Assembly: GCF_006345805.1 (NCBI RefSeq)
Contig: NC_043012.1
Coordinates: 36,208,001 to 36,272,000 of the forward strand
Direction of reading: 5' to 3'
DNA length: 64,000 nt
Source: Octopus sinensis
Taxonomy: Eukaryota
This document shows positions 15,140 through 57,318 of the stretch, one piece after another. The notes below the pieces were generated by a model, which worked only from the letters and a program-made list of their open reading frames with translations, did not search any database and was not told the DNA's origin. Position numbers and translations under genes: made by a program. Position 1 is the stretch's first letter. The number at the start of each line of letters is the position of its first letter.

Positions 15140-15980
15140 CAAGGCTGTATCAAAAAGTCCCCAAGACTAGTTCTGTTGCACACCAACAGGTGGCAGCGTA
15201 TGGTTGCATGCACAGTGAGAGCTAGCAGTGTTTACTTTGCAAGTTGTGAAAGTTATGTTTTTGTGATCACATGTATGCTGCAGTCTGCGATTTTGTCATG
15301 GAGGGGAACAAAGAGCCAATGTGAAATTTTGTGTGAAACTTGAGAAGTCTGCTAAAGAGACATTGAGCATGCTTACAGCAACAAGGCAATGGGTCATGTG
15401 CGACATTTCAAGTGGCACAGATGCCTCAAAAGCAGAACATCCTAGGAGACCTGCCATGAGCATCACCCCCAGAAATGTGTTATTGTGCATTGAGAATTGG
15501 TCCCCCTGGGCCAGACCATCAATCAAGGGTTCTACTGATGTTTTGAAACATTTGATGGAGGACATTCAGCGAAAGCGCCCGGATCTATGGAGGGCAAAGA
15601 ATTGGATTCTTCATGAAGACAACGCACCCTGTCACCAAGTCACCAAGTTTCTCCCCCAAAACAACATGGTATCACTTCCACACCCACCCTATTCGCCAGA
15701 TTCAGCACCTGCAGACTTCCACCTCTTTTCGAAGATGAAAATGCAGTTCAAAGGTCACCGTTTTAACACTGTTGGGAAGATCCAGGGCAAATTGCAGAAG
15801 GTCCTTGACTTGCTTACGGAAAATGACTTCCCAGACTGGATTCCAAAAGGGGCAGGAACACTGCGACCAATGTATTGGTGTGCAAGGGGACTATTTTGAA
15901 GGAGATGATGTTAAAACTTGGGTAAATAAGTTATTTCTTATTCAACATAACCTGTCTGGGAACCTTCTGATACCATCTCA
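15140..15980 (+). mobile_element. internally deleted mariner (DD34D) element with pseudogenised transposase
   Basis: TA-flanked imperfect TIRs (CAAGGCTGTATCAAAAAGTCCC / GGGAACCTTCTGATACCATCTCA); ORF 15321-15899 has WILHEDNAPCH and HPPYSPDSAPADFHLF but no recognisable first catalytic-D region. Confidence 0.9.
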
Positions 15981-17092: not shown

Positions 17093-17864
17093 ATATCATC
17101 ATCATCATATATATATATATTGTTATAAATTTCTTATGAAACACATAGATAGCGTAGAAGTGCTAAAGTTGAATCTGAGGCGTTAGATAAGTACGGTGGA
17201 TACAAGAGAAGAAGTTCAAATCAGGCAGACTACGATTAACACATACGGGTTTCATTAAGATAAAACAAGAATTGTCGAAACTGAAATACATGTTGATATA
17301 TTAGAGATATTGGACATCGTTATCATCGTTTAACGTCTGTTTTCCATGCTAGCATGGGTTGACACACAAAATGTTTGTATATGCACACACATGCTCACTG
17401 AATTATTTTTAACAATAAAGCTTGAAGTTGATGAAGCTATATAAATAAGTAACCTGTAGAATATTCAGTTAAAAAACATCTTGAATGGAAAGAAGTCAAT
17501 CCATACCAACATGGAAAAAAGGATGTTCAGTGATGATGGTATGTGTGCATATATGTGTACACACACACAATGTATGCATATATGTGTGTGTGTGTATATA
17601 TTGTTTCCATATTTTTGTCAGGAAGTGGCCATATCCTCTGACAAGGCCTCCAGACATTTGGGGCAAAAGATGTTTTCCTCCAACCAAAAACTTGTCTCAT
17701 ATAAGTTTACCTTCTTTTGAGAGATTAGCTTGAATGATTACTCTTATGGCCTTCAGGCTGATGCTGGCTTCCTTACACTTCCATCTGTCCCCTGACTTTG
17801 AGATGATGGGATGCAAAGTTTACCTTGGTAGAATTAAAATCTTCAAATACAAAGATTTGGTACC

Positions 17865-18104
17865 TTATTTACATTATTTACATTTGACGGATATTTCTCC
17901 TCATCTTGTTTGTTGTTAACACAACATTTCGGCTGATATACCCTCCAGTCTTCATCAGGTGTCTTGGGGAAATTTCGAACCTGAGTTCTCATTCCTAAGG
18001 TATCTTTCAATGTTATTGTTATTATTATTCAGGTCATTGCCTGGAATCGAACTCGGATTCTTGGGGTTAGTAGCCCGCACTCTTAACCACTACACCATAT
18101 GCCC
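17865..18104 (-). mobile_element. tRNA-headed SINE carrying a hammerhead ribozyme
   Basis: Minus strand: GGGCATATGGTGTAGTGGTTAAGAGTGCGGGCTACTAACCCCAAGAATCCGAGTTCGATTCCAGGC (A and B boxes), (AAT)n linker, then GACAC-CTGATGA-A-GACTG..CAGCC-GAAATGTT-GTGTT at 17963-17918. Second copy at 56245-56500. Confidence 0.85.
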
Positions 18105-19750
18105 GTGGGCATATATAAATGACTGCTTATGTATGTGTATATATGTGTATGTACTTATTTGTATGTGTGTATATATTTGTATGTGTGCATATCTATGTAT
18201 ATATATGCATCTATTTATGTGTGTGTGTATACATGTACACGTGTATGTATATATACAAGTATATGTGCATTTGTGTATATGTATCCGTGTGTGTATATTG
18301 TTCAGTTTATATATGTGTGTATATATATTTTTGTGCATCTATGAATGTAAATAATGTAAATAATTCCTCATCTCTTAAATATAGAACTACAAAGGTTTGG
18401 AACTAACATTGAGAAGCATTCTACCTTATCCTGTTACAACTTGTGTATGTTTAGCTTATATACAGATGTATGAGAGTAGATGTATATACGTGTGTGTGTA
18501 TATATATATATATATAAAAATGGCTGTATGTGTGTATATATGTCTATGTATATATTTGTATGTGTCTATGTGAATGTATATTGTGTGTATATGTGTATAT
18601 ATATATTTGTGTGCATATCTGTGTATATATGCATCTATTTATGTGTGTGTGTGTATACATGTACATGTGTTTATATGTACACAAGTATGTGCATTTGTGT
18701 ATGTGTATCTATATGTGTATATTGTTCAGTTTATATATGTGTGTATGTATATTTTTGTATGTCTGTGCATGTATGAATATGTACTTTTTTGTTTGTTTGT
18801 TTGTATGTATGTGTGTATATTTGTGTCTTTATGTTTGTGCATGTGTGTGTGTGTATATTTGTGAGAATATATATGTGTATGCATGTATTTGTATATCTAT
18901 ATTTGTGTGTGTGTGTGTGTGTGTGTTAGATTGTGTTTCTGAGCAAGTCATTTCATTTCTCGTTATTGCAGTCGTCTCACCTGTCAATACGCACCAGCCA
19001 GTTGCTGGTGCATCTCTCCCCTTTCATCTGTCACCTTCTGAATGTGGGGTTGCTTGAAATATGAGGGACCTGAAAGAGCTTTTGTCTCTGCTCACAACTA
19101 CTTAGGGACCTAAAGCAATTAGTGTATCAGTGGTGCATGTTACCATGCCATATGAGCAATACAGTTGACACAACTTTTTCTATTTATAACAATGTTATGT
19201 ACATATTATCATCATCATCATCATCATCATTTAACGTCCGTTGTCCATGCTGACAGGGGTTGGACGGTTTGACCAGAGCTGGCAAGCAAGAGAGCCACAC
19301 CAGACCCCAGTCTGATTTGGCAAGGTTTCTACAGCTGGGTGCCCTTCCAAGCACCAACCACTTTACAGAGTGTGCTGGGTACTTTTGCATGGCACTGCAA
19401 GGGTGCTTTTATGTCGTGCCACACAGGCACTTTTACGTGGCACCATATGGGTGCTTTTACATGACACTGCCTCAAGTACTTAACACCACCAGAAGGATTG
19501 GTCTTAACACTTTTGCTGTGGACTTTGGGTCTTCTTGAGTACGGCAAGATGCTAAGCATCTTGGTCCTTTATTAGGTCTTCGTACGTACAGCATCTCAGT
19601 CCTTGTACATACATACATATATATATAGCCGAAATTGCGAGGATGATCTGGTTCTTGACTGAAGATTGAAGGCTTCGAATGTCCTGTCCGTGTTTTTTGT
19701 ATCGTCTTCTAAATGTTTTGCGTTCTTGTCCCAGTTTGTATTTTTTTTAC

Positions 19751-21702: not shown

Positions 21703-22943
21703 TTGGGGGTCATCCCATAAATAATGCGGTTTTTTTCAATTGCATGAACTAAAAGTCAGATTGAAATGGGATAAAGTACCTGCATCAATTTGCTATAAAA
21801 GCAGGTAGTAATTTTACCTTGTACTTATTCTTAGTGCAAGTTTTGAAGAGTGCAGTTTGATTTTAACAGTTATTGTTTCAAAGCTGTAATGGAAGTGACA
21901 AAGGAGCATATTCGGCATATTTTGCTTTCTGAGTTCAATAAAGGCTACAAAGTAATGGAAAGTACGAGGAATATTTATGCAGTATATGGGGATCAGACAA
22001 TAGGCTTAAGCCAGTGTCAATGGTGGTTCCAGAAATTACAGTCTAGAAGACAAACTTTGTCCTGAAAGATCTGTAGAACTCAACGAGGACGTACTGCAAA
22101 CCCTGGTGGAACAAAATCCCCATTGTAGCTGTTGAGGAACTAGCAGAGAAGCTTGGATTTGGTCACTCAACCATTCATCAACACCTGCATGTCATTGGAA
22201 TTGTCAGCAAGTTGGGTCAGTGGGTTTCTCACAAACTTTCCAAGTCTAACTGAATGCAGAGAGTGAATGTGTACTCTTACGAATGAACCTTTTTTGGACC
22301 GAATAGTAACTGGTGACGAGAAATGGGTTCTCTATAAAAATGTCAAGCACCAAAGACAGTGGGTGGGGAAAGGAGAAACACTGGCACCCCAGGCTAAAGA
22401 AGGTTCTTCACCCACGTAAAGTGTTGTTATCTGTTTGGTGGGATATGAAAGGGCTAGTCCACTTAGAACTTTTAAACCCAAACCAAACAATAACAAAGGA
22501 GATCTACTGCGAGCAGCTTGAGTGGCTTAAGTCAGCGCTAGAAGAAAACCAACCATCTTTGGTTTCAAGACAAAAGGTGTTCTTCAATCAGGATAATGCT
22601 CGACCACATACAACGGAGATGACATTTCAAAAGCTGAAGCAGTTTGAATGGGAAACGATGCCCCACCCACCATATTCACCAGACATTGCGCCATCTGATT
22701 ATCATTTACTCTGCAGTTTTCCAAATCATTTGGATGGAAAAAAATATGAATTCTGTAGATGAAGTCAGAACAGTACTGGAGGAGTATTTTTCATCACAGA
22801 CAAGTAAATTTTGGAAGAGGTGCTTTGCAAGTCTACCAGATAGATGGAAGAGCATTGTAGAAAATGAAGGAGAGTATATTTTAGATTAAAGAAGAACCTT
22901 ATCTTAATTTTGAAAACTAAAAGAAGTATATAAAACTGCATTA
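21703..22943 (+). mobile_element. near full-length mariner (DD34D) with frameshifted transposase (ATG 21889 to stop 22889)
   Basis: MEVTKEHIRHILL..., WVSHKL, IVTGDEKWVLYKN, QDNARPH, HPPYSPDIAPSDYHL, W..IVENEGEYILD*; left TIR TTGGGGGTCATCCCATAAATAATGCGGTTTT after TA, right TIR eroded to AAAACTGCATTA. Confidence 0.95.
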
Positions 22944-46826: not shown

Positions 46827-47101
46827 AACCCAGTGGACCAGCAGATATCACACTTATATGATATTGCCCAGTAGACAGAAAGATATCGCTATATAGAAGG
46901 CATTCTTCTAAAAATAATGGACCACCAGTCTGTTCTCAACCAACGACTATGAAAGTTATTCTCTGCAATCTATTTCTCCATACGGTTCCAGTGTATTAAA
47001 AGACTCGCCTCTCCTCTTCACACTAGTTCTCTGAAATAGTTAGAGTTTATGTTGGCATTTCACTGCTACCACTATTGTTGTAGTAGTCAGTCATTTGAAA
47101 T
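46827..47101 (+). other. probable 5'-UTR portion of the first coding exon
   Basis: Acceptor ATATTCTCTTTCAG| at 46826; all three frames closed; in-frame TGA at 47096 precedes ATG 47102. Confidence 0.5.
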
Positions 47102-48030
47102 ATGATTTCTTTTGATAAAACCCCGGTCTCCTCAGAAACCTGCCATTCTGTTATGCAATCGTACCCTAATCAGTCATCTAATATTCCAGAAACAGCTATG
47201 TACTCCCCTTCATTTGCACTGCCTAATGACATGGGGTCTCGTTTACAGTATACCAAGCCTGCTGCCACTTTACCAAACAATTCTATACAAGAACAGGCCC
47301 CTTACTTATATTCAAGTTTTCAACAACAGACTACAATTCAATATCCAACCACTAATAACTCGCTAGTTGATAATAGCAATCTTGCTGTGCTACACCAACC
47401 AACGAGATCAGAACTACCAGTTTCAAATAACAATCTGATAAATGTATATTCAAATAGTGTTTCTCAGTCATTTTATAACCAGACATTACAGAGTGAAGAA
47501 AGTGTTAATCTAATGCGTGCTAGGCCTTCAGATGGATTATTAAAAGAGTCACCTCCCAAAGACCGGATTTATGAACACATATCCCATGCACATTCTATTT
47601 CCAAATCCCACAAAAAGATAACAGAACTCAGTGATGAAGATTTGTCTTCAAGATTCCCATCTAGCCCTCTGATAAGTTCCAAAATTAAGCCCTCATCATT
47701 AACTTTATACTCTAGTATTTGCAAGTCGTTGTCGTCGTCATCGTCATCATCTGTTGAAAACAAGAAGAGAAGGCGTTCGCGCTCACGTTCTTCTTCACCG
47801 TCTTACTCACGATCAAAGTCTCCTAGTTCCTACTCGAGATCCAGATCGTCATCTAGAAGAAAGTCTTCGAGAAGATCTCGATCTAAAAGCCCTTATTCAA
47901 AAGGCAGAGGTCACTCGGACAAACCCCGATACAGCTCTAGGTTGAATGAGAATGACAAGTCATCCAAGAGATCATCGCGATCGAGGAGTCGAGAGAAGGA
48001 CTACCATAGGGAGACATCCCAAGGTGATAA
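47102..48030 (+). CDS. SON: SON-like protein, coding exon 1 (S/Q/N-rich N-terminus and RS-rich tract)
   Basis: 310-aa ORF with KKRRRSRSRSSSPSYSRSKS...; donor AA|GTAAGT (phase 2) matches the next exon. The start codon is less certain than the exon end. Confidence 0.88.
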
Positions 48031-49650
48031 GTAAGTAGATAACCAGTTACATCTCTTCCTAGCAGCAGTTGAATATTGCCAGGATTACATCCGACTAAGA
48101 ATTCTATCTTTCTTCCTTTCTCTCCCTCTCTCTCTCTCTTTTTCTCTCTCTCTCTCTCCCTCCCTCCCCTTCTGTCTCTCACTATCTTTCTCACTCATGT
48201 CTAAGAGGTAGGCAAAGAGAGAAAGAGAGGGAGAGAGAGAGAGAGAGAGATAGGAAAAGAAGTAGCATCATAGTTTGGTACAGCGCCAAGTCTGTGACCT
48301 GACCATCAGTTTACCAATATCCTGGGACAAGCATGAAGATCACCTCTTCACCATGAACCCCTACCCCCTCTTCCTATGCAGTAAAACTAATTATATATTA
48401 ATAAAGTAAATATCAATGTTGATAAACGTATTTTTGATGTGGTCAGTATACTTGACTTGTGTGGGCAGTAGTTGTTTGTGTATGCCCCCTCCCCATCATA
48501 CATACATATACATACATATATAAAACTTTGAGATGGTTATGTCTTTAGCTGAGTAGAAATTGCTTTTCATAAAGTGGAATTCAAACATAGATGCATGCTT
48601 GTGTGTAATGTAATGCTTTGTCCCAGAATGGCCATGGTCCACTGATTAGAACCAATAAATGAGTAAAAGGCCTTTTATGTATATACATAGTTGTTTTTTT
48701 GTTATTTTGTGGTGCAAAAATATAAAAGTGCTCATCACCCCCTTGCGTAGAGTCTGGTATATGTTTAATCATGTGTAAAGTAAATAGGGTTCTGTATCAA
48801 AGGTTTTTGTTTAGTCCTGTGATTGGTTGGACTCACCAGTGAATGAAGAAGAAGAAATGACTGATAATGGTTGAGTGGTTTAAGTGGCATCTGGACATGA
48901 TCATGTGGTCTCTAACATCAATTGTTATCATATCCAGGAAGGTTTGTTTTATAGTTCTTGAGATTTAATTTAGGCTTGTGTTAGCAGACTGAAATAGGTT
49001 CTTTTTTGTTTAGAACTGGAGTGGTGCTAAATAATATAGAACTTCTCTGTAAAACATAGGCCACATTGTTGCAATCCATTCCTAACCGGTCAATGCCTTA
49101 TCTTGTAATGTTATCAACATGTTGTTGCTGATCTCTCTTTTTCGTGTCTTGATTTCCTAATAATATTGAGAAATGTTGTGGTGTCCTACAAGTCTCATTG
49201 TCAGAATGAATTGTTGCACTGCTTATGTTGGGGACTTTTGAATCTTTGCTCTGAATCAATCTTTTGTTGTTGTTTTTGTTGTTACTTGACACCCTCTTCA
49301 CACCTGATTGAGTACACATATGATCAAAGACATTCCATCTGTGACCAGATGGCTTTTATTCTTCTTCAGTCAGATTACATCTTGATCTGCAATATTGAAT
49401 GTGGCCTTTTTTTTTTTTTAAGATGAAGACTGTTGTTTGAGAGAATTTTGGCTGCTGTTTCTAGTAAGTTGAGCATCAAGCATCTGTGTAGAGGCTCCCT
49501 CCTTGTCTGGTTGAAGTGTTGTTGGGGATGGGGAGGTATCTGCACATTTATATGTTGTATTAAGATGTAAAATATCACTTACTCTTTTGCTTTTCGTTTC
49601 ATTATTGTAATATGATCACACACACACATACACAGACTGTGTGTATATGC

Positions 49651-55946: not shown

Positions 55947-56244
55947 GTAACAAGTTTCAACCATCTGTAATTCTTTTGTTCACCTGTCCCTCACTCCTTT
56001 CCTCAAGAGTCTGTGATATTGTATACCTTAAGCAAATCTTTCCATTCCCTTTCCATAGTCTGTGATTTATAATAAAATCTTGATGCTTCTTCTATCTGCA
56101 ACAACTAATGCAAACAGGTGTAACAGTGGAATGTAGTTTCTATTTATTCCACTGTTTGTTTTTTTTTGTTGTTTTTCGACTGATATATATATATATATAT
56201 ACACATACACCCCTATGTTGTTGTTGTTGTTGTTATTATTATCA

Positions 56245-56500
56245 TTATTATTATTCAGGTCACTGCCTGGAATTGAACCGAGTTTGATTCCAGGCAGTGA
56301 CCTGAATAATAATAAGAAGAAGAATAACATTGAAAAATACCTTAGGAATGAAAACCCAGGTTTGAAATTTCCCCAAGACACCTGATGAAGGCTGGAGGGT
56401 ATATCAGCCGAAACGTTGTGTTAACAACAAACAAGATGAGGACAGATATATGTCAATTGTAAATAATGTAAATAATTCCTCATCACTTAAATATAGAAGT
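56245..56500 (+). mobile_element. tRNA-hammerhead SINE copy with 5' inversion
   Basis: Body matches the reverse complement of 17865-18055 and adds the tail TTCCTCATCACTTAAATATAGAA; 56245-56278 is an inverted copy of 56282-56315. Confidence 0.85.
56377..56422 (+). ncRNA. minimal type I hammerhead ribozyme (intact core)
   Basis: GACAC-CUGAUGA-A-GGCUG(10 nt)CAGCC-GAA-ACGU-U|GUGUU: stem I 5 bp, stem II 5 bp, palindromic stem III as in Penelope-type minimal hammerheads. Confidence 0.75.
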
Positions 56501-57318
56501 GTATAATCTTACATCATCTTGTAGCTTCAAGGTTTCAATGATGGGATTGTTTATTTTTACAATGGCATTGTAGAGTAGGTGTGAGAGACCAATTTAAACG
56601 CTTAACAGCTGACATTCAGGTTACTTTGTGAATAAACAGAACATTAGATTTTAACAGTTTTGAATTGATCCTGCATTCTCTCATAGTTTCAGGATTTTGA
56701 TGTTATGATTGTTTTATTATTAGAATGACATTGTAGGGTAGGTATGAGATGTTGGATCTGGCCAGTTTAAATGCTGAAATGTTAAACAAGTTTTGTTTTT
56801 TGGTTGTTTTTGTTTTCCCTGTTGCCTGTCATTTCTGAATAACCCAACATAATCAGAGTGGTTTGATGTTGCCTAGTAGTGTGTTAATGAATAAATCAGG
56901 ACATTGGTGGAGGAAAAGTGTGCATGGAATGATGACACCACACTTGCTCTCATCCCTCCCTGATGCCAAGGAAAAAGAGGCAAAGTTATTGAATGAGAAT
57001 GAGAGGGAGGGGGGGAGTTCCCCTAAGCAGACCTGATAGAAGACAAAGTAAAACCTGGCAGTGGGGACGACCTTAAGTAGACCAAGTGGTGGGAGAAGCT
57101 GTTGAGGTTGACACCTGGGCAGTCTGAATGGCAGTTAAAAGTATAAAGGTGACAAAAGCTTGTTGTTGAGAAGCTGAAAACACCTGCCAAGTGAGATTTG
57201 CACTAATTTTCTCACAGGGTGTGATGAGGTGTTATCATCGCCAATCACTGCCCTAGCTGCAGCAACAGCTGAAGAGAGGAAAGGAAATGTTTTAGAAAGG
57301 AGCAACTACAGAGATATT

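What the first reader, a model, noticed from the sequence alone, without database searches (positions are those of the whole stretch)
17848..18403. Single TSD-bounded composite insertion that copied its own downstream flank
Seen in order: TACAAAGATTTGGTAC (17848-17863); inverted full SINE lacking the tail; snap-back ATATGCCC-GT-GGGCATAT at the SINE 5' end (18097-18114); about 230 bp duplicating the TG/TA-rich flank at about 18515-18778 (shared GCATCTATTTATGTG and TATATTGTTCAGTTTATATATG); 44 nt of the SINE 3' end in direct orientation with tail (18344-18387); TACAAAGGTTTGGAAC (18388-18403, 14/16 match). Inference: one integration event with template jumps between element RNA and local DNA, a mechanistic snapshot of Penelope-type insertion.
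Basis: partly seen in the sequence, partly recalled or inferred. Interest (0 to 1): 0.75.

Follow-up and report, generated by a model that had tools for sequence, protein, structure and literature searches.

The report
Penelope insertion that copied neighbouring DNA
This is an old, dead insertion of the end of a Penelope-type jumping gene in that family's usual back-to-back layout, and its only unusual part is a 230-base copy of neighbouring DNA at the middle joint, likely made when a loose copy strand briefly read the adjacent chromosome during insertion.

Summary
The filler is a true local copy: a 22-mer from it occurs twice in 2.72 Gb, both times here, and the flank scores 231 bits against 142 for the best other locus scored. 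Three corrections follow. (1) The 'SINE' is the terminal repeat (pLTR) of a coding Penelope-like element; the scan found this before on other DNA. (2) Duplication + inverted tail-less piece + tailed piece + duplication is the family's commonest layout: 41 of 89 position-sampled copies, 25 of the 41 with a significant duplication (median 12 bp). The firm duplication here is 13 bp. (3) Twelve of the 18 hairpin bases are encoded by the element, and fold-back there is frequent (684 versus 486 read-through matches). Only the long, same-direction flank copy is rare: 0 of 51 other inverted inserts. Filler divergence (about 10-11%) fits the age of the insertion. No empty allele was found. Best reading: one integration primed from both cut ends, with a locally templated insertion at the join, as known for human L1. 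Known parts in an uncommon combination.

The parts
17848..17860 (+). Left copy of the target-site duplication (13 bp; 12 of 13 match the right copy)
   Evidence: Score 9.5 versus maximum 9.0 of 600 random pairings; family median 12 bp
17861..17864 (.). Four ambiguous bases: extension of the duplication to 16 bp, or a worn piece of the element's own repeat unit
   Evidence: Many other copies match down to 17861 (loose-end tables); L024 has the same letters inside the element
17865..18111 (-). Inverted, tail-less terminal repeat (pLTR) of a Penelope-like element; positions -273 to -27 counted from the tail end; 11 differences in 247 from the family majority
17918..17963 (-). Minimal type-I hammerhead motif (5-bp stem I, CUGAUGA, unpaired A, stem II, GAAA); this copy has C>T at 17926 and G>A in stem II, so it is likely dead
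   Evidence: Read by eye against the description in PMC4209133; a near-intact copy folds with both stems; no Rfam hit
17990..17992 (-). ATG that opens a stop-free frame through the tail, the likely start of the element's ORF
   Evidence: 51 codons open in the family majority; in-frame continuation past the tail in L237, L244, L250
18031..18104 (-). tRNA-like head with A-box-like (18087-18097) and B-box-like (18043-18052) motifs
   Evidence: Motifs read by eye, box consensus recalled; ARAGORN 0 of 5 loci, no Rfam tRNA hit
18100..18111 (.). Element-encoded palindrome TGCCC-GT-GGGCA, a hot spot where copies end or fold back
   Evidence: In the master before the head; 684 fold-back versus 486 read-through exact matches
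18112..18114 (+). TAT: 3-nt fold-back extension and/or microhomology with the (TA)n run at 18500-18516
18112..18346 (+). Filler: same-direction copy of the downstream flank 18512-18778, flush with element pieces at both ends; AAT at 18344-18346 is shared by source and tail piece
18344..18388 (+). Direct piece of the terminal repeat with tail (-46 to -2); overlaps the inverted piece by 20 identical nt
   Evidence: pieces starting at -42 to -48 recur (e.g. L018, L020, L023, L036, L043, L045)
18388..18400 (+). Right copy of the target-site duplication; first T shared with the tail
18512..18778 (+). Source of the filler, part of a longer TG/TA-rich tract (about 18480-18926); begins about 110 bp beyond the duplication

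Best explanation
The insert is the terminal repeat of a Penelope-like RT-endonuclease retroelement in the family's commonest layout (duplication, inverted tail-less piece, tailed piece, duplication) plus a 230-base copy of the downstream flank at the join, and it likely arose in one integration in which both ends of a staggered cut primed a cDNA and one loose cDNA end briefly copied the neighbouring DNA before the two ends were joined. Steps. (1, inferred) The endonuclease cut both strands about 13 nt apart. (2, inferred; both-strand cutting and extension and two internal start sites were shown in vitro for another PLE) The right end primed at the tail end and gave 45 nt; the left end primed 27 nt further in and gave 247 nt, up to the element's palindrome. 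(3, inferred) The long cDNA left its template there, probably folding back by up to 3 nt. (4, inferred) Its 3' end (ATAT) annealed to the (TA)n run about 110 bp inside the right arm and was extended about 230 nt away from the cut, giving a same-direction copy. (5, inferred) It let go and annealed through AAT to the end of the short cDNA, and fill-in made the duplication. The polymerase of step 4 is more likely a host repair enzyme working on a resected end than the element's RT (about 2:1, judgement only).
For: Shown: the terminal repeat follows the ORF in 23 of 24 ORF loci. The 551-aa ORF of L141 has nearest Atlas clusters at 0.97 carrying RVT_1, HTH_animal and, in part, GIY-YIG. Of 89 copies taken in genome order by an exact tail match, 41 have an inverted partner ending 25-47 nt before the tail end. 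25 of those 41 have a duplication above the 99th percentile of random pairings (8-18 bp, median 12), against 4 of 48 without such a partner. This locus fits that layout at both outer ends. The filler is flush with element pieces at both ends, matches only the adjacent flank and has 3-4 nt overlaps at entry and exit. Filler and source differ at 27 of 237 aligned columns, 3 of them in the element hairpin, so 10-11%. Twice the element's divergence gives 9% (this copy) to 13% (family median 6.3%, n = 85 pieces). From papers: cleavage and extension of both strands and two internal start sites bounding the tail (PMC11167929); same-direction templated insertions arise when one resected end copies the other (PMC7165422); 22 templated insertions in a set of 3,598 L1 insertions (10.1101/2024.08.27.596794).
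Against: No empty allele was seen in 8 runs laid of 21 listed, so the pre-insertion state is not shown, and no listed contig covers the filler joints in any run. The entry and exit overlaps are short and lie in low-complexity DNA, so they are weak evidence. Pfam gave no hit for the 551-aa ORF or two shorter pieces, and none of 30 Pfam GIY-YIG loci carried this terminal repeat; the endonuclease assignment rests on the Atlas lead and motifs read by eye. The filler is far longer than single Pol-theta tracts (rarely over 10 bp) and further from the cut than typical L1 templated insertions (within 15 bp). Local duplications that are not junction fillers occur beside other copies (L162, L154, L124, L188), and L193 holds a 113-bp, 98%-identical local copy inside an old element arm, which likely came later. 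The age match is coarse because TG/TA tracts may mutate at another rate.
Confidence: 0.78

Rival explanations
1. An ordinary two-armed insertion came first; later the palindromic joint broke and repair copied the nearby flank into it.
For: The joint carries a palindrome; L193 shows a likely later local copy (113 bp, 98% identical) inside an old arm; local duplications are not rare near copies.
Against: Filler-source divergence (10-11%) is not lower than twice the element's divergence; the filler starts exactly at the palindrome hot spot and ends at the recurrent -46 start, with no sign of loss from either arm.
Confidence: 0.13
2. A tandem duplication of target + spacer + flank existed first; two separate insertions then landed, one replacing the first spacer and one just before the second target copy.
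For: Short local duplications exist in this genome (L162, where an element sits inside one copy of such a pair). The filler is slightly more diverged than twice this copy's own divergence.
Against: Needs two insertions and an exact deletion of about 110 bp, with four boundaries that happen to reproduce the family's standard ends and a 13-bp duplication in the family's range.
Confidence: 0.04
3. The filler was already in the RNA: a read-through or antisense transcript from this or another locus carried it, as in trans-capture between pLTRs.
For: PMC3846280 reports host DNA captured between solo pLTRs inside a duplication (passages); the sense strand of the terminal repeat has no run of four T to stop a Pol III transcript.
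Against: The filler matches only DNA 110 bp from the insertion site and occurs in no other copy; a donor elsewhere would not carry the target's own flank.
Confidence: 0.05

Closest known systems
Endonuclease-bearing Penelope-like elements, Penelope/Poseidon type: PAc of Anolis (PMC11167929, parts 1-2 of 4 read), Adineta Penelope families (PMC3846280, passages), overview in PMC8557442 (passages)
   Same: pLTR that includes the ORF start, optional tail at one end only, inverted truncated partner, short duplication (8-10 bp in Adineta), palindrome at the inverted joint, minimal hammerhead, host DNA sometimes found between pLTRs.
   Different: Here the captured DNA is a same-direction copy of the insertion site's own flank, which I did not see in the passages read; the pLTR begins with a tRNA-like head rather than a TATA-type promoter; duplication median 12 bp.
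Human L1 twin priming and templated insertions (10.1101/2024.08.27.596794, passages)
   Same: Inverted piece flush with one duplication copy, direct 3' piece flush with the other, overlap at the inversion point, and copies of local DNA under 250 bp inside the insert (22 in a set of 3,598).
   Different: No poly(A); the second start is a fixed site 25-35 nt before the tail end rather than chance annealing; inversion is the norm in this family; the template lies about 110 bp from the cut, against typically within 15 bp.
Pol-theta locally templated insertions, direct-repeat class (PMC7165422, passages)
   Same: Same-direction copy of flanking DNA, short overlaps at entry and exit, AT-rich template.
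   Different: Single Pol-theta tracts are rarely over 10 bp; this one is about 230 nt, closer to synthesis-dependent strand annealing.
tRNA-derived SINEs (general definition recalled, not from a call)
   Same: About 270 bp, A- and B-box-like head, thousands of solo copies, most ending near the head.
   Different: The sequence is an integral part of a coding element and ends in a defined tail, not in poly(A) or a simple repeat.

Membership tests
EN+ Penelope-like element | Single ORF with a PLE-type reverse transcriptase | tested here: met
   L141 551-aa frame; Atlas top clusters 0.97 with RVT_1 and HTH_animal, 10 of 10 named hits agreeing; Pfam scan itself gave no hit
EN+ Penelope-like element | C-terminal GIY-YIG endonuclease | tested here: inconclusive
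   VYSIPCSCG-x-LYKGET-x-RPLK-x-R motif read by eye at the C-terminus (motif knowledge recalled); GIY-YIG on 47% and 26% of members of two Atlas clusters; no Pfam hit
EN+ Penelope-like element | pLTR after the ORF that also holds the ORF start | tested here: met
   Follows the ORF in 23 of 24 loci; open frame from -155 and in-frame continuation past the tail in 3 of 19 loci examined
EN+ Penelope-like element | [quoted passage not shown] | tested here: met
   Piece ends cluster at 0 and at -26 to -35, so the tail is 26-35 nt
EN+ Penelope-like element | Inverted, 5'-truncated partner copy and short target duplication | tested here: met
   41 of 89 inverted; 25 of 41 with significant duplication
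EN+ Penelope-like element | Minimal hammerhead motif in the pLTR | tested here: met
   Core and stems by eye against PMC4209133; no Rfam match; cleavage not testable
EN+ Penelope-like element | Clade placement by RT phylogeny (Penelope/Poseidon, Neptune, Nematis) | not tested
   No tree was built; no reference PLE proteins were on hand
tRNA-derived SINE | Non-autonomous unit separate from its partner's coding element | tested here: not met
   Same sequence is the ORF-adjacent terminal repeat
tRNA-derived SINE | tRNA-derived head with A and B boxes | tested here: inconclusive
   Box-like motifs by eye; ARAGORN 0 of 5; Rfam no tRNA hit
tRNA-derived SINE | Transcribed by RNA polymerase III | not testable with these tools
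   Piece starts peak at -285 to -250, which fits either a transcript start or an RT stop at the palindrome
tRNA-derived SINE | Poly(A) or simple-repeat 3' end | tested here: not met
   Copies end at a fixed non-repetitive tail
L1-type twin priming | Inverted piece and direct 3' piece inside one target duplication | tested here: met
L1-type twin priming | Poly(A) priming plus a second primer annealing at variable internal sites | tested here: not met
   No poly(A); second start fixed near -26 to -35
Locally templated insertion (direct-repeat class) | Insert repeats flanking DNA in the same direction | tested here: met
Locally templated insertion (direct-repeat class) | Microhomology at entry and exit | tested here: inconclusive
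   ATAT and AAT overlaps, short and in low-complexity DNA
Locally templated insertion (direct-repeat class) | Pol-theta signature: short tracts next to the break | tested here: not met
   About 230 nt from a template about 110 bp away, against rarely over 10 bp

The most novel reading that the evidence does not exclude
Penelope-type elements integrate as a rule by priming two cDNAs from the two ends of a roughly 12-nt staggered cut at two fixed internal start sites, and the element's own telomerase-related RT, released at a built-in palindrome, can jump onto chromosomal DNA and copy hundreds of bases lying more than 100 bp from the cut. This family would then be a source of local host duplications and a fossil record of thousands of events on which that model can be tested.
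Probability: 0.25. Interest if true: 0.55.

Novelty: new variant of a known kind. Interest (0 to 1): 0.3.

Why it matters
The later steps of Penelope-type integration are described as not yet validated (PMC11167929). This family gives genomic numbers that fit two-ended priming: two fixed start sites, a duplication of about 12 bp tied to the inverted layout (25 of 41 versus 4 of 48), and a palindrome where cDNAs stop or fold back. The locus shows what a failed first attempt at joining may leave behind, and extends templated insertions, known from L1, to a PLE. As a single dead copy with no sign of function it matters little on its own. For annotation, a repeat that looks like a SINE is the end of a coding PLE.

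Tried and rejected
Empty allele: 8 of 21 listed runs were laid. Contigs run from the left flank into the element in X6 and X12 (organism C, 31 letters past the junction, 18 other letters and 9 gaps in 297). They run 24-25 letters past it in X15, X16 and the own-sample control X1, below the tool's 31-letter rule. X3 has one contig from about 18363 across the right junction (26 letters on the tail side, a hint only). X4 and X19 did not cover the flank. The filler region was skipped as repeat, so lack of cover there says nothing. Assembly error: rejected, the two flank copies differ by 10-11%. Rfam and ARAGORN: no tRNA or hammerhead match; the miRNA-family hits lie on TG/TA repeats and are below the gathering scores. 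Pfam GIY-YIG search of G000: none of the 30 loci fetched, of 147 matches, carried this terminal repeat. Pfam scans of the ORF: no hit. Folding energies of head and hammerhead were no better than shuffles (z -1.2, -0.9, +0.7). Sibling events: of 8 exact hairpin-to-TATATA matches in the genome only this locus has a copied flank. Apparent fillers explained otherwise: (AAT)n expansions, nested repeats, or element sequence beyond the tail (L011, L028, L032). L188, L162, L154 and L124 are local duplications outside the insert. The 20-nt identity between the two arms as proof of one RNA template: ambiguous, because a three-unit repeat variant explains it too. Rows dropped before counts: L055 (same cluster as L054); L049, L197, L200, L201 (duplicates, all non-inverted); 9 of 30 hairpin loci as duplicates. 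The 41 of 89 is a lower bound, because microsatellite expansions split some clusters.

Full report
Observation. The window shows, in order, a short repeat at 17848, an inverted element piece (17865-18111), a hairpin (18097-18114), a TG/TA-rich filler, a direct 45-nt element end (18344-18388) and the second repeat copy. The filler is a real copy of the flank at 18512-18778. Its local score is 265-270, against 145 for the best other tile of the window and at most 135 in 900 block shuffles. In G000 the flank scores 231 bits against 142 for the best other locus among 40 scored of 1988 candidates, and a 22-mer from it has exactly two matches in 2.72 Gb, both here. The copies differ at 27 of 237 aligned columns and the filler lacks 29 nt of the source, so this is not an assembly duplication. 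The duplication is best read as 13 bp with one mismatch; it beats all 600 random pairings of other copies' flanks.

What the element is. The body belongs to a large family (4637 first-look candidates; 5,226 exact matches to a 22-nt tail pattern). Several copies shared sequence upstream of the head, and a search with it led into a reading frame. In 23 of 24 ORF-bearing loci the 'SINE' follows the ORF end directly. The longest open frame (L141, 551 aa) has RT and GIY-YIG-like motifs by eye (motif knowledge recalled); its nearest Atlas clusters score 0.97 and carry RVT_1, HTH_animal and partly GIY-YIG, while Pfam scans gave no hit. The terminal repeat holds an ATG with a frame open through the tail, and three loci continue in frame beyond the tail, as in PAc, where the pLTR overlaps the ORF start (PMC11167929, parts 1-2 of 4). 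It holds a minimal hammerhead motif of the kind described in PMC4209133 (part 1 of 4), mutated in this copy, and a tRNA-like head that neither ARAGORN nor Rfam recognised. So it is a pLTR of a Penelope-like element, not a separate SINE. Earlier notes of this scan reached the same reading on other copies; I had reached it before looking, and they are not independent evidence.

How ordinary the layout is. I took the first 90 exact tail matches on contig C1 in genome order and kept 89. At least 41 have an inverted partner that stops 25-47 nt short of the tail end, mostly at -26 to -35. 25 of these 41 have a duplication above the 99th percentile of random pairings (8-18 bp, median 12), against 4 of 48 others. 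In 21 loci chosen for the hairpin joint, 9 of 10 inverted inserts had one. This matches the tail at one end and the inverted partner described in PMC8557442 and PMC3846280 (passages), and the in vitro finding that a PLE protein cuts and extends both strands and starts at two internal sites that bound the tail. I infer priming from both ends of a staggered cut.

The hairpin. Fold-back there is a family habit: 684 exact matches continue as a fold-back (some counted on both strands) against 486 that read on into the element, with fold-back lengths of 3-19 nt followed by jumps. Here only TAT can be fold-back, and it also fits the (TA)n run where the filler starts.

The filler is the rare part. Among the 51 other inverted inserts, ten inversion joints had a gap of 12 nt or more and none matched its own flank above background. 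One insert (L042) had run on by fold-back into 29 nt of its left flank. A self-comparison of 187 loci (selected sets included) gave further inverted candidates flush with an element end (L136, 67 bp; L008; L144; L205), none checked to the same depth, and no second long same-direction case. Of 8 hairpin-to-TATATA joints in the genome only this one has a copied flank. Against my reading, local duplications also occur beside copies without being fillers (L162, L154, L124, L188), and L193 holds a 98%-identical local copy inside an old arm, likely a later event.

Age and orthologues. This copy differs from the family majority at 11 of 247 sites, and the family median is 6.3%. Twice these values brackets the 10-11% between filler and source, as expected if both date from the same time. 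Contigs of organism C cross the left junction into the element at about 6% divergence, and those of B and D reach into it as far as the own-sample control does. No empty allele appeared and the filler joints were not covered. The insertion is old and shared.

Mechanism. Best reading (0.78): one integration. Both ends primed; the long cDNA stopped at the palindrome; its ATAT end annealed to the (TA)n run about 110 bp inside the opposite arm, was extended about 230 nt, let go, and joined the short cDNA through AAT. Same-direction templated inserts arise when one end copies the other resected end (PMC7165422, passages), but Pol-theta tracts are rarely over 10 bp, so a longer strand-annealing synthesis or the RT itself is needed. 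All these steps are inferred; only the anatomy, the counts and the ages are shown. Rivals: later repair into the joint (0.13), capture through RNA (0.05), prior tandem duplication with two insertions (0.04).

Novelty. Templated insertions under 250 bp are reported for L1 (22 in a set of 3,598; 10.1101/2024.08.27.596794, passages), and host DNA between pLTRs for Adineta Penelope. Eight paper searches (listings, plus the passages named) showed no report of a PLE joint filled from its own flank, and a word search of the scan's notes found none; the library lacks most subscription papers. Passages of 10.64898/2026.07.22.740005 and PMC13282606 added nothing on this point. Verdict: a real, well-defined, uncommon variant made of known parts; interest 0.3.

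Noticed in passing
G000, whole family (e.g. L012:1425-1730, L141:3564-3991): The pLTR starts with a tRNA-like A/B-box head right after the ORF stop, has no T4 run on the sense strand, and piece starts peak at -285 to -250; a Pol III-type promoter is possible. Already noted by the scan on other copies.
   Followed up: partly
L042:735-1524: Fold-back copy ran through its own start into 29 nt of the left flank (with an internal repeat), then joined a 47-nt tail piece: a second, inverted form of flank capture.
   Followed up: partly
L136:1086-1187, L008:1391-1457, L144:3586-3660, L205:1466-1500: Inverted copies of nearby DNA (35-110 bp, 82-97%) flush with an element end; possible captures or insertion-linked inversions.
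   Followed up: partly
L193:1806-1918: 113-bp, 98%-identical inverted copy of DNA about 900 bp beyond the insert, sitting inside an old element arm in place of 14 nt; likely a later templated repair.
   Followed up: partly
L060:1704-1825 and L187:1709-1873: Both arms of an inverted insert share the same nested non-element sequence at 98-100% identity, suggesting conversion between arms or a donor that already carried it.
   Followed up: no
L164:1403-1495: 93-nt filler at the palindrome joint that matches neither flank within 1.5 kb nor the mapped element; origin unknown.
   Followed up: no
L196, L197, L200, L201: Four near-identical loci within 0.9 Mb on C1, likely a segmental duplication.
   Followed up: no
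window 56237-56502: Second copy of the family: short inverted piece broken at the (AAT)n run plus a tailed piece.
   Followed up: partly
window 15267-15899 and 22310-22762: Open frames that look like mariner-type transposase fragments (recalled motifs, no search run).
   Followed up: no
window 47099-48034: 311-codon open frame ending in an Arg/Ser-rich stretch, likely a host exon.
   Followed up: no
family pLTR, about -191 to -173: The (AAT)n run inside the repeat is often expanded and is a frequent site of nested insertions of other repeats.
   Followed up: partly
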